From the NCBI GenBank assembly GCA_951406725.2, contig OX597834.1:27900001-27964000 (forward strand): a stretch of 64,000 nucleotides of DNA. The letters are read 5' to 3'. The notes under the pieces are model-generated. The model had not been told where the DNA came from. It was given only the letters and a program-made list of their open reading frames with translations, and made no database searches. Shown here piece after piece: positions 4,274 through 40,272 of this stretch. Position 1 is the stretch's first letter. Each line of letters opens with the position of its first letter. Source of the DNA: Octopus vulgaris (taxonomy: Eukaryota). Made by a program: the position numbers and the translations under genes.

Positions 4274-4339
4274 TAAATATGATATATATATATATATATA
4301 TATATACTTTATTTTAAGCAGCAGAAAATTCAACAAAAT

Positions 4340-4377
4340 CTGTTACTCTGAGTTTCTCGTTGCCGTTCATCAGACAG
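4340..4377 (-). ncRNA. Minimal type I hammerhead ribozyme motif
   Basis: Minus strand reads ctgt-CTGATGA-acg gcaa cga-GAAA-ctcagag-TA-acag. The core is canonical, stem I is ctgt/acag, and stem II has a basal mismatch. Confidence 0.65.
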
Positions 4378-4573
4378 TTTTTGCTAGAATGGAACTTATA
4401 TATTAATTCAATCTATCTTTTTTCCACCTTGTTTCACATTTATGTGTTTACTCCGGTATATATATATATATATATATATACGAAATTAATTTGTGTAAGA
4501 ATCAATACGAAGGGTACTCCATCTAATGAGAGTCTGATATTACTATAAATGCTTCATAGTACATGCATTGTAC

Positions 4574-6734: not shown

Positions 6735-7062
6735 TTAGCTAATTTCTTCCTCCTCGTCAAAGACGATTTGTCCCGGGAGAGCAAAAGTGGGTATGTACGG
6801 TTGACGTGTTGACGTTGATTTAGCTCTCCGTATTTCGCCGTTCAACCGGTTGGCTTTCAGTTCTATTGATGTCACCAAGTCGTCGTTAGAAAGAAGTAAG
6901 GAATGGTTCACGATATACTTTCCTCTTGTATTCTTTCTCAGAAATCTCATATGATCTTTCATGCGGCTTCTCAACTTACGCCACATTGATCTGTTTGCTT
7001 CGTCAAACGTGGACTCCATGCTGTATAGATTATCCAACGTACAAATGCACTGAAGGTGTTTC
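6735..7062 (-). CDS. Candidate terminal coding exon, product unknown
   Basis: Acceptor tatctgtatacag|G at 7063/7062 is followed by a non-repetitive open frame KHLQCICTLDNLYSMESTFDEANRSMWRKLRSRMKDHMRFLRK...QIVFDEEEEIS*. An internal donor-like GC|GTAAGT at 6980 gives an alternative 83-nt exon. Confidence 0.5.
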
Positions 7063-8030: not shown

Positions 8031-8498
8031 CCAGGAATAGGGGCAATTCAATTCTGGCTAGAGAATTACTCCAATGAACTCCCTCACCACATCGAAAAAG
8101 AATTCGTAATAGAAAGGCTAAAATTCGTCTTGGAGGAATAACTTTTACGTATTCAATGACAACTTCTATCGACAGTATCGGGGACTGCGATGGGCACGAC
8201 AATGGCCCTCTCCTTTGCTAACCTAGTCATGGGATATCTAGAAATCAGTCTGTATCTTAAGGTACTAGAAAAATATAGAAACCCATTCTCCCTTTGCATA
8301 GAAAATACCTGGAAAAGACATCTCGATGACTGCTTCATTCTTTGGCATGAAAGTATAGAGTGACTTAAAGAATTTCAAGCACTTCTAAATGGACTTGACA
8401 TAAACATTCGATTTACGATGGAATATAGCCGTTAACAACTTCCATTCCTTGACATCCTCATTAAGAAGACCAACAGCAAAATAGAAACTGACATATAT
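8031..8498 (+). pseudogene. Penelope-like retroelement reverse transcriptase remnant
   Basis: Disrupted frame with [49 protein letters not shown] and IETDIY, matching the order of PLE RT motifs. Confidence 0.9.
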
Positions 8499-8577
8499 TC
8501 TTGGGGGTTAAAAAATCACATTAAACTCCGTTCGAACGGAACAGCCATGTTGATGTGGCTACTAACATTATTTGCTG

Positions 8578-9405
<828 letters not shown>

Positions 9406-9572
9406 TAATAGTTATCGCCATACTAATATGGCATTCTTATAAAAATAAGAAAAAGCTGTCCGCTTATTAGCTCCATGAGGCCATCGCCTTAAGTTAGCTA
9501 TTTGATACACAAACTGTATCCATATAACCTTCGAACAAGGGAGGTCAGTCGCTCCACACTACCTGACCGGCA

Positions 9573-9614
9573 GCTACAGACGCGTTTCGGGGTATTGCCC
9601 CTTTTCAATGCAGC
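9573..9614 (-). ncRNA. Minimal hammerhead ribozyme, U3-A8 core variant
   Basis: Minus strand reads gctgca-TTGAAAA-gggg caata cccc-GAAA-cgcg-TC-tgtagc. Confidence 0.7.
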
Positions 9615-9934
9615 GTAGCCAGCCAGTAGGTGTCGCTTCCGACAATCTCTGTTCGATGGTTTTATTTACCTAGTTTCGGTGGAATACATCCACTTGTTTT
9701 CAATAATAGAAATATTAAAATAACTAAGTCTCTCTAAAAGAGAACAGCGGCAGCGTTCCCGGAAAATAATAGTTATCGCCATACTAATATGGCATTCTTA
9801 TAAAAATAAGAAAAAAGCTGTCCGCTTATTAGCTCCATGAGGCCATCGCCTTAAGTTAGCTATTTGATACACAAACTGTATCCATATAACCTTCGAACAA
9901 GGGAGGTCAGTCGCTCCACACTACCTGACCGGCA

Positions 9935-9976
9935 GCTACAGACGCGTTTCGGGGTATTGCCCCTTTTCAATGCAGC
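9935..9976 (-). ncRNA. Minimal hammerhead ribozyme, U3-A8 core variant (second copy)
   Basis: Identical to 9573-9614. Confidence 0.7.
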
Positions 9977-9988
9977 GTAGCCAGCCAG

Positions 9989-10369
<381 letters not shown>

Positions 10370-10416
10370 AATAGAGGAAATTTATCTATACAATATGTTA
10401 CATTACTCGGTAGTCA

Positions 10417-10479
10417 AGATAAAACTCTGAGTTTCAGATGCCGATGTGGAAATCCACAACACCATCTCTTCGGTTATCT
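10417..10479 (-). ncRNA. Hammerhead-like motif with CCGAAGA core and extended stem II
   Basis: Minus strand reads agataa-CCGAAGA-gatg...tgtgg attt ccaca...catc t-GAAA-ctcagag-TT-ttatct. Its stem III (ctcagag) is the same as at 4340-4377. Confidence 0.55.
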
Positions 10480-10481
10480 GG

Positions 10482-10535
<54 letters not shown>

Positions 10536-14088: not shown

Positions 14089-14171
14089 TACTGTTTATTT
14101 ACCTTAAGAATGCTGCTTTTGTCTGTGATATATATGTTTAGATATTTCTCTTGTTTAATTCTAATTTTTTT

Positions 14172-14540
14172 ATTACTTTATTGCCCACAGGAGGCTAAAC
14201 ATACAGGGGACAAACAAGGACAAAAAGATTAAGTCGATTACATCGACCCCAGTGCGTGACTAGTACTTAATTTATCGACCCCGAAAGGATGAAAGGCAAA
14301 GTCGACCTCGGCGGAATTCGAACTCAGAACGTAATGGCAGACGAAATACCTATTTCTTTACTGCCCACCAGGGGTTAAACACAGAGGGGGACAAACAAGG
14401 ACTGACAAACGGATTAAGTCGATTACATCGACCCCAGTGCGTAACTGGTACTTAATTTATCGACCCCGAAAAGATGAAAGGCAAAGTCGACCTCGGCGGA
14501 ATTTGAATTCAGAACGTAACGGCAGACGAAATACCTATTT
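14172..14540 (-). mobile_element. SINE family C (Meta-domain-like) tandem dimer
   Basis: Two adjacent copies of gtcgactttgcctttcatcctttcggggtcgataaattaagtac on the minus strand. Confidence 0.85.
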
Positions 14541-14542
14541 CA

Positions 14543-16918: not shown

Positions 16919-17625
16919 ATTATTATGATTATTCTTATTTCTTTCTATCACAGGTTTTGTTAGAGCTCCTGGAATCTTACATGCGTAGCAGGCTTGCTAT
17001 CTGCAGCCTATGGTACTATGCTATCCATTCTTTTCAGCTGTCTAATACTTTCCTGATTATACTGACCGTGCCAAGGAGGCAAACCTTTCGTAACAGTTCT
17101 ACTGGGCACTCTATTCCTATTTCCTTTATATTCCCCTTGATGCCTTCTGATATTGTTCCCAAGGCCCCAACAATAATTGGCACTGTCTTCGCCCTCTTCA
17201 TTTTCTATAGCCTGTCTATTTCGTACTTAAGAGGGTTGTATTTATCTATCTTTGCGCCTTCCTTCTTGAATATTCGTGGGGAAAAGAGGCATGCAACATC
17301 AGCTATGTAGCGTATGTGGTGCGTCTTGTCCACCACCACTAGGTCCGGTCTGTTACGCTCTTCCATCTGATCTGTTTGGATTGGGAAATCCCAGAGGATT
17401 TTACTAGTCTCCGACTCCGCTGCTCTCTGCGGTTTGTGCTCATACCACGTCTTGCCTCTCTCTAGACCCCACTTCTCACACAGTTTCCAATGTAGCACTT
17501 TCGCGACCTGATCGTGTCGCCACAACTTGTAATGGTTTGAGGAAACCCTAGGGCATTCGTTCGTGATGTGGGCAATGGTTTCGTCCACTCTGTTGCAGAT
17601 GCGGAACAGCGGAGACACGTGCTCC
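16916..17625 (-). mobile_element. R4/Dong-clade LINE 3' fragment (zinc knuckle and restriction-like endonuclease)
   Basis: RICNRVDETIAHITNEC (decayed CCHC), RHDQVAKVLHW, ILWDFPIQTD, NRPDLVVVDK...ADVAC, KIDKY and PIIVGALG, with one internal stop. The 3' UTR ends in (TAA)n. Confidence 0.9.
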
Positions 17626-29814: not shown

Positions 29815-31557
29815 CCACCTGGTCAGCATTTGGGAATTTTTTTTTTTTTCAATTTTTAATTCATGGATGTGTTGTTACACATATCCTTGGGTTGCTGATT
29901 TTAAATGTCTAAACTATTTTGCTCTGTAACATAAGGATGTTGAATAAAGTACAGATTAATAATTTTTAAAAAATGTGATTTTTTAAAATAAATTGTTACT
30001 TTATTAAAATGAAACGAGTAATCAAGGAAAAGCACATTCTGTTAGTTTTATGGACATATAGGCGCAGGAGTGGCTGTGTGGTAAATAGCTTGCTTACCAA
30101 CCACATGGTTCCGGGTTCAGTCCCACAGCGTGGCATCTTGGGCAAGTGTCTTCTGCTATAGCCCCGGGCCGACCAATACCTTGTGAGTGGATTTGGTAGA
30201 CGGAAACTGAAAGAAGCCTGTCGTATATATGTATATATATATATATAGGCGCAGGAGTGGCTGTGTGGTAAGTAGCTTGCTAACCAACCACATGGTTCCG
30301 GGTTCAGTCCCACTGCGTGGCATCTTGGGCAAGTGTCTTCTGCTATAGCCCCGGGCCGACCAATACCTTGTGAGTGGATTTGGTAGACGGAAACTGAAAG
30401 AAGCCTGTCGTATATATGTATATATATATATATATGTGTGTGTGTTTGTGTGTTTGTGTGTCTGTGCTTGTCCCCCTAGCATTGCTTGACAACCGATGCT
30501 GGTGTGTTTACGTCGCCGTCACTTAGCGGTTCGGCAAAAAGAGACCGATAGAATAAGTACTGGGCTTACAAAGAATAAGTCCCGGGGTCGATTTGCTCGA
30601 CTAAAAGAAGGCGGTGCTCCAGCATGGCCGCAGTCAAATGACTGAAACAAGTAAAAGAGTAAAAGAGTAATCAAGGAAAAGCACATTCTGTTAGTTTTAT
30701 GGACATATGTTTTCCAAATCAACATGAAATGAACCAGAATTGTCAACATCAAACCAAATGAATGTAAAAAATGTGCTCCTAATGGTTAGCCTACATATTA
30801 ATTCAAAGGAAGGAGGGCCGCTTTGATTTCCGCTTGTGTTGTACATCGGAACCATCACGTTTCAATAACCAGCAGTAATCCGCCATCATACTGATATTCC
30901 ATTTGCCCTGGTGTCGAGTTTCCGTGGTACAAATGTCTTGTTAGAGCCGCCCTCCTTGTTCCTCACTGTAGTCCCCACATTTTTTGGGAAAATAGTCAAG
31001 ATGCGAATGCAAACAATGCATCTTCACGCTCATTCTAGACCCAAGTTGTTGGAAACTTCATATCAGGCCTTGGATCATTTTTTTTTTTCATATTCTGGGG
31101 AGTGGCTGTTTTCCAAGAAGTTTTAGACAATATTCTTGGAGAAAAACCTGGCATTCACTTCGACACCTGCTAATGCTTCCTCAAAATGCTTGTCCCTCAT
31201 CAATTCCCGATTCTGAAGGTAACAAAGATTTCTGCTTTTAGCTTGCCTTCATTTATACGAGGAAACTGATTCCAGGAACTTGAAAGGAGCTCCATTCTTG
31301 TTCAGGGCCTTTGCAAAATTTTTAATAAGCCCCAACTTAATGTGGGGCGGCGGCAGCAGAATTTTTTGGATGTCAACTAGGTGCACAGCTTTCACGTTGT
31401 GATTTCCGAGTAAGAATCTGGTTCTTGGTCGCCAGTCTTTTTGTTCATAGTGCTGGCTCTTTGCCCTACTATCCCAAAGACACAGAAAACAGGGATACTT
31501 AGTGTATCCCCCTTGAAGACCCAGTAGGAGAGCAATAACTTTCGAATCCCCACAAAT
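29815..31557 (-). mobile_element. DNA transposon remnant, Chapaev3-like transposase C-terminal half plus 3' region, interrupted by a SINE
   Basis: The disrupted frame 31557-30803 gives ICGDSKVIALLLGLQGGYTKYPCFLCLWDSR, LLPPPHIKLGLIKNF, RMSVKMHCLHSHLDYFP and MMADYCWLLKRD. The superfamily name is from recalled motif similarity. Confidence 0.75.
30061..30664 (+). mobile_element. SINE family A with duplicated head and 44-bp target-site duplication
   Basis: Heads start at 30061 and 30247. The flanks 30016-30059 and 30665-30708 are identical. Confidence 0.92.
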
Positions 31558-31593
31558 GAAAAAAATGATTATGGTACTTGTTTGCAGTTATAT

Positions 31594-34603: not shown

Positions 34604-34784
34604 TGTGCCTGTGTGTACGTATGTGTGTGTGCATGTGTGTGTGTGTGTGTATATATATACATATATATATACTCGTATATATTATACATTTACATATATA
34701 TATACATATATATATAAACACATCTACATTCCAAATTATTCGAATATATATATATATTGTTATCTTACCGTTTTTATCAATATA

Positions 34785-39855: not shown

Positions 39856-40272
39856 CATTTCTTTATTACCCACAAGGAGCTAAACATAGAAGGGACAAAC
39901 AAGGACAGACATAGGTATTAAGTCGATTACATCGACCCCCAGTGCGTAACTGGTACTTAATTTATCGACCCCGAAAGGATGAAAGGTAAAGTCGACCTAG
40001 GCGGAATTTGAACTCACAACGTAACGGCAGACGAAATACCTAATTCTTTATTACCCACAATGAGCTAAACACAGAGGGGACAAACAAGGACAGACATAAG
40101 TATTAAGTCGATTACATCGACCCCAGTGCGTAACTGGTACTTAATTTATCGACCCCGAAAGGATGAAAGGTAAAGTCGACCTCGGCGGAATTTGAACTCA
40201 CAACGTAACGGCAGACGAAATACCGCTATGCATTTCGCCCGACGTGCTAACGTTTCTGCCAGCTCTCCGCCT
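39856..40272 (-). mobile_element. SINE family C dimer within one 14-bp TSD
   Basis: tctgaaagtttacc occurs at 39842-39855 and 40273-40286. Confidence 0.9.

What the first reader, a model, noticed from the sequence alone, without database searches (positions are those of the whole stretch)
9405..9990. 362-nt tandem unit with twin U3-A8 hammerheads: candidate circular retrozyme
Seen: two identical minus-strand motifs gcugca-UUGAAAA-gggg caaua cccc-GAAA-cgcg-UC|uguagc lie 362 nt apart. Both partners of the C3-G8 core pair are changed together to U3-A8, and stem III is the palindrome ACGCGU. Known: positions 3 and 8 pair in the active hammerhead, and tandem minimal hammerheads complete stem III as a dimer. 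Inference: a transcript would cut at 9941/9940 and 9579/9578, releasing a 362-nt non-coding monomer that could circularise. The near-identity of the copies suggests recent origin. It lies on the same strand as, and upstream of, the candidate exon at 6735-7062, so it could cut that pre-mRNA.
Basis: partly seen in the sequence, partly recalled or inferred. Interest (0 to 1): 0.8.

Follow-up and report, generated by a model that had tools for sequence, protein, structure and literature searches.

The report
Retrozyme with U3-A8 hammerhead, probably octopus
A 362-base non-coding repeat, present here as 1.6 head-to-tail copies inside a TA microsatellite, carries two well-formed hammerhead motifs with an uncommon but known U3-A8 core shared by the main family; it is likely a retrozyme (a small parasitic element predicted to cut itself and form RNA circles) of a probable octopus, a known kind of element whose cutting is untested.

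Summary
9405-9990 (minus) is 1.62 units of a 362-nt repeat; the overlap is 224/225 identical. Each unit has a type I hammerhead (6-bp helix I plus 9-bp extension, 4-bp helix II, palindromic ACGCGU helix III, U3-A8), with predicted cuts at 9941/9940 and 9579/9578. Contigs of four public runs show a many-copy family. No other letter reached 3% at U3, A8 or any core base, and a diverged subfamily keeps U3-A8 with compensatory helix changes. So U3-A8 is the family state, not decay of this copy. Both window copies share one letter almost absent from the family, which fits copying from one template. The unit closes as a 362-nt cycle in a run guessed to be RNA, but the same joint exists in DNA, so circles are not shown. 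The copy ends in (TA)n next to a decayed Penelope-like RT. Verdict: an animal non-LTR retrozyme, a known class. U3-A8 is also in print (natural hammerheads; Schistosoma Penelope elements). I found no paper on the combination or on octopod retrozymes. The pre-mRNA-cutting idea is unsupported.

The parts
9405..9990 (-). Retrozyme insertion, 586 nt = 1.62 units of a 362-nt repeat
9925..9988 (-). Hammerhead copy 1 with extended helix I (U3 9970, A8 9965, C17 9941; predicted cut 9941/9940)
9563..9626 (-). Hammerhead copy 2 (U3 9608, A8 9603, C17 9579; predicted cut 9579/9578)
   Evidence: family variation
9579..9940 (-). Predicted 362-nt monomer between the cuts; 42% GC, 64% paired as a circle, longest ATG frame 38 codons
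9405..9411 (-). 3' end of the insertion at an internal CTATTAT motif that runs into (TA)n; the unit's second CTATTAT (ending at 9703) is joined to TA-rich tails in 17 (X3) and 14 (X5) contigs
   Evidence: (table 7)
8576..9407 (.). (TA)n microsatellite, about 830 nt, at the 3' end (likely target)
9989..10038 (+). 50-nt inverted duplicate (100% identical) of the end of the 10320-10484 segment, touching the element's 5' end with a 2-nt overlap
10042..10319 (.). (TA)n tract between the two inverted arms
10320..10484 (-). 165-nt segment between TA tracts with a degenerate minimal-hammerhead-like motif (12-mer shared with 4345-4356); possible Penelope pLTR remnant
   Evidence: inference
8034..8498 (+). 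Decayed Penelope-like reverse transcriptase fragment (stops and a frameshift) beside the far end of the TA tract
   Evidence: 52% identity over 155 aa to an RT + GIY-YIG protein, E 4e-44

Best explanation
This is a recent genomic copy of a many-copy 362-nt non-coding repeat family whose hammerhead has U3-A8 in place of C3-G8, likely a non-LTR retrozyme that is predicted to cut itself as a dimer, be closed into a circle and be pasted back by Penelope-like enzymes. Steps: (1) shown: tandem units, each with a complete type I hammerhead and U3-A8 as the family state; (2) inferred, about 0.7: a transcript through two units pairs the two ACGCGU palindromes into a 6-bp helix III and cuts after C17, releasing a 362-nt RNA; (3) inferred from other animals, about 0.6: a host RtcB-type ligase closes it into a highly paired circle; (4) inferred, about 0.6: a Penelope-like endonuclease/RT nicks (TA)n, starts inside the unit at CTATTAT and copies 1.6 laps of one template, which gives two copies with the same private letter and ends that do not match the cut site.
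For: Anatomy and folding. Family: 20 runs, 8 organism labels, 10 studies hold 0.79-0.92 of the 38 sampled words; 2512, 16, 1 and 1168 contigs laid in X3, X12, X19, X5. None of the 32 substitution places listed at 3% or more hits the 13 core bases (by itself p about 0.29). Common changes inside helices keep the pair: G.U to A-U at 9611/9576 (35% in X3), G-C to G.U at 9619/9570 (18% in X3) and at 9599/9591 (3% in X5). One diverged contig (X12 record 4, 13 changes and 3 gaps in 96 nt) keeps U3-A8. By my reading of tables 3, 4 and 7 it has three two-sided changes in the helix I extension, a 4-bp helix II and a 2-nt shorter, still palindromic helix III. At 9563/9925 both window copies carry a letter absent from 99.8% (X3) and 98.7% (X5) of family depth and from the main contigs of X12 and X19. 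X19 holds one 392-nt contig (362 + 30 overlap), a closed cycle with 1 difference; X12 closes the same cycle at depth 102-114. The 3' end lies at CTATTAT into (TA)n here, and the unit's other CTATTAT is joined to TA-rich tails in 31 contigs. A Penelope-like RT relic shares the TA tract. Papers: circles, dimer cleavage and RtcB ligation for coral, mussel and axolotl retrozymes (PMC7229834); U3-A8 active in vitro and natural (PMC3088659); (TA)n targets and inverted 5' pieces in Penelope-like elements (10.1101/2021.04.23.441226).
Against: No cleavage or circle was observed. All runs are contigs, none is on record as RNA, and the 9841-to-9480 joint is also in DNA run X3 (depth 1384), so the cycle may be a tandem DNA array or its linear transcript. 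The forced double-hammerhead fold is 6.1 kcal/mol above the minimum and has about zero ensemble probability. In a 2026 preprint 8 of 9 predicted Xenopus retrozyme dimers did not cleave. One helix I extension pair becomes U.U in the diverged contig unless an unlisted change compensates. The TA-tail consensuses at 9703 have low agreement (0.56, 0.75), and 170 loose ends were not shown. Other sites in the unit match (TA)n better than TATTAT, and the one Penelope enzyme studied in vitro starts at a site not homologous to its target (PMC11167929). The neighbouring RT is decayed, and the related Penelope loci L013/L014 have C3-G8 minimal motifs with no clear likeness to the unit (best 19 nt, E 0.046).
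Confidence: 0.78

Rival explanations
1. The unit is the pseudo-LTR of an autonomous or deleted Penelope-like element, and this copy is an ordinary 5'-truncated partial tandem; no free circle is involved.
For: Partial tandem, inverted piece at the 5' end and a (TA)n target are Penelope hallmarks. U3-A8 is known from Schistosoma Penelope elements. Xenopus retrozymes resemble pLTRs. An RT relic lies 0.9 kb away.
Against: Contigs close the unit head to tail in 3 of 4 runs (table 5), and the whole circle is strongly paired. The hammerhead is canonical, unlike the minimal pLTR motifs of the related loci L013/L014. The RT relic is on the other strand, decayed and separated by the TA tract. I did not test the loose ends for RT sequence.
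Confidence: 0.1
2. A retrozyme-derived satellite whose ribozyme is slow or dead; it spreads through uncut multimeric RNA or DNA recombination, and U3-A8 is an old fixed change that survives without selection for cutting.
For: Core invariance alone is not significant (p about 0.29). 8 of 9 Xenopus dimers were inactive. Hammerhead cleavage was dispensable for a Penelope enzyme in vitro. The copy's ends are not at the cut site.
Against: Pair-preserving and two-sided changes in helices I and II and a retained palindrome in a contig about 85% identical. U3-A8 is reported active.
Confidence: 0.09
3. The hammerheads act on a host pre-mRNA that includes the candidate exon at 6735-7062.
For: Same strand; the frame is open for 108 codons after an AG. 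The Atlas recognition score is 2435, which the tool says does not show a gene is real.
Against: No relative found (none at E 0.001 or better; two Pfam hits below cut-off; best score 0.83). The copy is a recent member of a dispersed family, 2.3 kb away behind a TA tract and an RT relic. Any cut would be an accident of insertion.
Confidence: 0.03

Closest known systems
Metazoan non-LTR retrozymes (Cervera and de la Pena 2020, PMC7229834; parts 2-4 of 6 read, supplement unreadable): coral 220-245 nt, mussel 350-390 nt, axolotl 330/350 nt
   Same: Tandem non-coding units of 150-450 nt, GC under 50%, one canonical type I hammerhead per unit, highly paired monomer with the ribozyme left unblocked; helix III of one pair capped by a palindromic tetraloop, as in axolotl HHR_Amex1, which cleaves well only as a dimer.
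   Different: Core pair U3-A8 instead of C3-G8 ('U3-A8' has 0 occurrences in that main text); probable octopod host ('octopus' and 'cephalopod' 0 occurrences); (TA)n target with an inverted flank and no plain target-site duplication seen; RNA not demonstrated.
U3-A8 minimal hammerheads of Schistosoma mansoni Cercyon Penelope-like elements (Cervera and de la Pena 2014, PMC4209133; passages read)
   Same: Same core covariation, type I topology, predicted dimer action, Penelope context.
   Different: Those (about 1,300 hits) are heterogeneous minimal motifs, mostly single, tied to an RT element. This one is a canonical motif with a bulged helix I in a homogeneous closed 362-nt unit.
Natural U3-A8 hammerheads (Perreault et al. 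2011, PMC3088659; passages read)
   Same: C3-G8 covaries to U3-A8; reported active in vitro.
   Different: Scattered examples, not a tandem animal retroelement family in the passages seen.
Penelope-derived animal retrozymes (Li, Clavereau and Pollet 2026, bioRxiv 10.64898/2026.07.22.740005; parts 1 and 3 of 5 and passages read, supplements closed)
   Same: Tandem type I hammerhead units that co-occur with Penelope-like elements and are proposed to use their enzymes.
   Different: 31 vertebrates and 4 invertebrates, no mention of octopus or molluscs in the main text; here no parent pLTR was identified.

Membership tests
Type I hammerhead ribozyme | Three helices around the core, helix I open | tested here: met
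   Helices I and II at probability over 0.93; helix III only 1 bp as a monomer, 6 bp in a forced dimer
Type I hammerhead ribozyme | Core C3 U G A N G8 A9 / G12 A A A15.1 / U16.1 H17 | tested here: inconclusive
   All positions match except C3/G8, replaced by the pair-preserving U3/A8, a published active variant; Rfam models give no hit
Type I hammerhead ribozyme | Loop 1/loop 2 tertiary elements | tested here: inconclusive
   UAC bulge 6 bp from the core and CAAUA loop are present; likeness to the Schistosoma ribozyme loops is recalled, not tested
Type I hammerhead ribozyme | Self-cleavage after H17 | not testable with these tools
   Needs in vitro transcription or raw RNA reads; only contigs were available
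Non-LTR retrozyme | Tandem units of about 150-450 nt, one type I hammerhead each | tested here: met
   362-nt unit, two hammerheads; head-to-tail joint in X3, X12, X19
Non-LTR retrozyme | Non-coding, low GC, highly self-paired monomer | tested here: met
   Longest ATG frame 38 codons, 42% GC, z -7; no tRNA
Non-LTR retrozyme | Many dispersed genomic copies | tested here: met
   2512 and 1168 contigs laid in X3 and X5, with varied flanks; copy number not measured, no genome held
Non-LTR retrozyme | Expressed as linear and circular monomer RNA | tested here: inconclusive
   Closed 362-nt cycle in X19 and X12, but their RNA status is a guess and the joint exists in DNA
Non-LTR retrozyme | Mobilised in trans by a Penelope-like element | tested here: inconclusive
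   (TA)n target, inverted 5' flank, neighbouring RT relic; no partner element identified
Penelope-like element pLTR | Repeat attached to an RT + GIY-YIG frame | tested here: inconclusive
   Not attached in this window; genome-wide test not possible
Penelope-like element pLTR | Minimal hammerhead without canonical helix sizes | tested here: not met
   Canonical helix I (6 bp plus extension) and helix II (4 bp) against the description in PMC4209133

The most novel reading that the evidence does not exclude
The 362-nt circle is also copied RNA to RNA and moves between species like a viroid, re-entering genomes at (TA)n through a dedicated CTATTAT start site. That would explain near-identical sequence under 8 organism labels, a single clean cycle in X19 while a run of the same study lacks it, and a genomic copy that reads as 1.6 laps of one molecule. 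It would be an infectious animal retrozyme with a non-standard core that C3-G8 descriptors miss. Recent expansion in closely related species, or low-coverage DNA, explains the same data more simply.
Probability: 0.07. Interest if true: 0.85.

Novelty: new variant of a known kind. Interest (0 to 1): 0.38.

Why it matters
If it cleaves, it is a whole animal retrozyme family running on a U3-A8 core. Rfam missed it here, and searches that fix C3-G8 would too, so retrozyme counts may be too low. It would add probable octopods to the hosts. The locus also keeps an unusually readable record of insertion: one private letter in both copies, an internal start at CTATTAT, an inverted flank and a Penelope relic in the same microsatellite. 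That makes the untested rolling-circle reverse-transcription model for animal retrozymes checkable from genome data. It changes no established mechanism.

Tried and rejected
Rfam: no hammerhead at E up to 10 locally or at gathering score in the window; the miRNA hits are microsatellite artefacts. No whole genome is held, so no copy count or flank survey. No RNA holder is listed on record; this is no evidence either way. Summed contig depths were not used as copy number. Pattern scans: 3 loci in viral contigs and 8 in metagenomes are chance matches; none of the 11 folds as a hammerhead or resembles the unit. The exact family motif had 0 hits in metagenome and prokaryote genome collections. Independent decay of U3 and A8 in this copy was rejected. 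The Pol III/tRNA idea was dropped: no tRNA gene, one B-box-like match at 9898, no A box and five T runs in the unit. Parent element: no related locus in viral contigs; 3 loci in genome contigs, whose putative minimal motifs are C3-G8 and unlike the unit. The RT relic has no Pfam hit and no PDB match better than E 0.26; it was identified by homologue search. The flank alignment was dominated by microsatellite and uninformative. Simple (TA)n microhomology as the full explanation of the 3' ends is weakened. Literature: 'hammerhead ribozyme + octopus' 5 papers, 4 listed; 'retrozyme + octopus' 3 papers, 2 listed (PMC10886601 seen as listing only); 'hammerhead + cephalopod' 129 papers, 25 listed, mostly sharks; 'U3-A8' 1 paper; the Octopus vulgaris repeat paper PMC13282606 has 0 occurrences of ribozyme or retrozyme in its main text (supplement listed, not read). 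Unread supplements of PMC7229834 and the 2026 preprint, and subscription papers, could hold a cephalopod or U3-A8 retrozyme. PMC3334697 was not held.

Full report
Observation. On the minus strand, 9990-9405 is 586 nt of unique sequence between microsatellites. It is one 362-nt unit plus 224 nt of the next; the overlap matches in 224 of 225 columns, with one indel in a T run. A type I scan that allows any Watson-Crick pair at 3-8 found only these two in the window, against 1 hit in 30 shuffles.

Anatomy. Each motif has a 6-bp helix I, a UAC bulge, a 9-bp extension, the core U3 U G A A A8 A9, a 4-bp helix II with a CAAUA loop, GAAA, the palindrome ACGCGU and C17. These are the helix sizes of 'canonical' metazoan type I hammerheads in PMC4209133 (passages), not of the minimal Penelope motifs. 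In the full transcript helices I and II form with probability over 0.93, while helix III is not formed. A forced double hammerhead is sterically allowed but lies 6.1 kcal/mol above the minimum. The monomer between the cuts is 42% GC and 64% paired as a circle (z -7.0, 0 of 100 shuffles), and its longest ATG frame is 38 codons. Rfam does not detect it.

Family. No genome is held. Twenty of 24 listed runs, under 8 organism labels and 10 studies, hold 0.79-0.92 of the 38 sampled words; five of them are contig sets of only 5-6 million letters, as expected of a high-copy repeat. None is on record as RNA. I laid 4 of the 20 holders on one unit, 9480-9841, at 80% likeness and 3% share: X3 (DNA?, organism A, 2512 contigs), X12 (RNA?, A, 16), X19 (RNA?, H, 1) and X5 (unknown, C, 1168). 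None of the 32 listed substitution places falls on U3, A8 or the other 11 core bases. A C3-G8 sister family under 3% of depth or under 80% likeness would not be seen. Frequent changes within helices keep pairing (9611/9576, 9619/9570, 9599/9591). One diverged contig (X12 record 4, 13 changes and 3 gaps in 96 nt) keeps U3-A8. Combining its rows in tables 3, 4 and 7, it has three two-sided changes in the helix I extension, one pair that appears broken, a shifted 4-bp helix II and a helix III palindrome 2 nt shorter. This reconstruction is my reading of the tables, not an alignment.

One template. At 9563 and 9925 both window copies carry a letter found in only 0.2% (X3) and 1.3% (X5) of family depth, about the depth of the diverged subfamily, and not in the main contigs of X12 or X19. 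The insertion starts 50 nt before the first cut and ends 174 nt after the second, so it crosses the cut site twice. This fits a reverse transcriptase running 1.6 laps on one circle. An uncut transcript of a homogenised array, or a variant of a species I did not lay (organism B), also fits.

Circles. X19 holds a single 392-nt contig, 362 plus a 30-nt overlap, which is a closed cycle with one difference; X12 closes the cycle at depth 102-114. The same joint stands in DNA run X3, the RNA labels are guesses, and contigs cannot show ends, so expression and circularity stay open.

Insertion. The 3' end stops at an internal CTATTAT that runs into about 830 nt of (TA)n. The unit has only two TATTAT sites, and the other is joined to TA-rich tails in 17 contigs of X3 and 14 of X5 (agreement 0.56 and 0.75; 170 loose ends not shown). 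Other sites match (TA)n better, and the Anolis Poseidon enzyme cuts at ATT but starts reverse transcription at a non-homologous internal site (PMC11167929, passages), so plain microhomology is not established. The 5' end touches a 50-nt perfect inverted copy of a segment 280 nt upstream, across another TA tract. At the far end of the downstream tract lies a decayed RT, 52% identical over 155 aa to an RT + GIY-YIG protein. That homologue has a Cys motif between the two domains, which suggests the Neptune/Nematis type described in 10.1101/2021.04.23.441226 (passages; no tree built). Partial tandems, inverted 5' pieces and microsatellite targets are Penelope traits in that paper. The relic shows shared target taste, not partnership: related loci carry C3-G8 minimal motifs unlike the unit.

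Host. Named hits of the RT relic include Argonauta hians, Octopus bimaculoides and Mytilus coruscus, and the SINE and microsatellite landscape looks octopod to me from recall. The host is probably an octopod; this is not established.

The exon idea. The 108-codon frame at 6735-7061 has no relative. Nothing ties it to the element.

Comparison. The element meets every sequence-level feature of the animal non-LTR retrozymes of PMC7229834 (parts 2-4 of 6), where circles, dimer cleavage and RtcB ligation were shown for coral, mussel and axolotl. U3-A8 is a published, active variant (PMC3088659) and occurs about 1,300 times in Schistosoma Penelope motifs. A 2026 preprint links animal retrozymes to Penelope pLTRs and found 8 of 9 tested dimers inactive, which tempers the cleavage estimate. 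My searches found no U3-A8 retrozyme family and no octopod retrozyme; unread supplements may hold one. Earlier scan notes show no look-alike sequence but many retrozyme and U3-A8 cases (unchecked).

Verdict. A real, well-supported retrozyme-type insertion; new variant of a known kind; interest 0.38. Cleavage about 0.7, circular RNA about 0.6, host-gene regulation about 0.03, viroid-like spread about 0.07.

Noticed in passing
window 8034-8498 (+): Decayed Penelope-like RT fragment (GTAMGT, LDD and LPFLD motifs) ending near the same TA tract as the retrozyme; a second NGTAM-like stretch follows just before the tract.
   Followed up: yes
window 4300-4460 (-), core at 4373-4345: Degenerate C3-G8 minimal hammerhead (CUGAUGA...GAAACUC) in a short segment between TA tracts; shares an exact 12-mer with 10435-10424 (2 matches, 0.13 expected). 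Probably Penelope pLTR remnants.
   Followed up: partly
window 9989-10038 and 10320-10369: Perfect 50-nt inverted duplication around a 278-nt TA tract, abutting the retrozyme's 5' end; its last 25 or so bases recur at about 34750-34774.
   Followed up: partly
window 6735-7061 (-): 108-codon open frame after an AG, protein-like by Atlas recognition score but without any homologue; may be a lineage-specific exon.
   Followed up: partly
window 14171-14541, 30056-30434, 39859-40224: Head-to-tail dimers of a 184-187-nt SINE-like repeat that has many dispersed copies in the window.
   Followed up: no
window 17208-17624 (-) and 31252-31587 (-): Open frames that look like LINE and DNA-transposon relics (from recall); no Pfam hit above cut-off.
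   Followed up: partly
L013 3660 and L014 48 and 3545: Penelope-like elements with C3-G8 minimal-hammerhead-like motifs sit inside bacterial MAG contigs, probably eukaryotic contamination; L014 has the motif twice, 3.5 kb apart, around the frame.
   Followed up: partly
runs X19/X20 vs X23; X11/X12 vs X24: Runs of the same study differ in holding the element (0.79-0.84 vs 0.00), which could reflect tissue, individual, species or library type.
   Followed up: no
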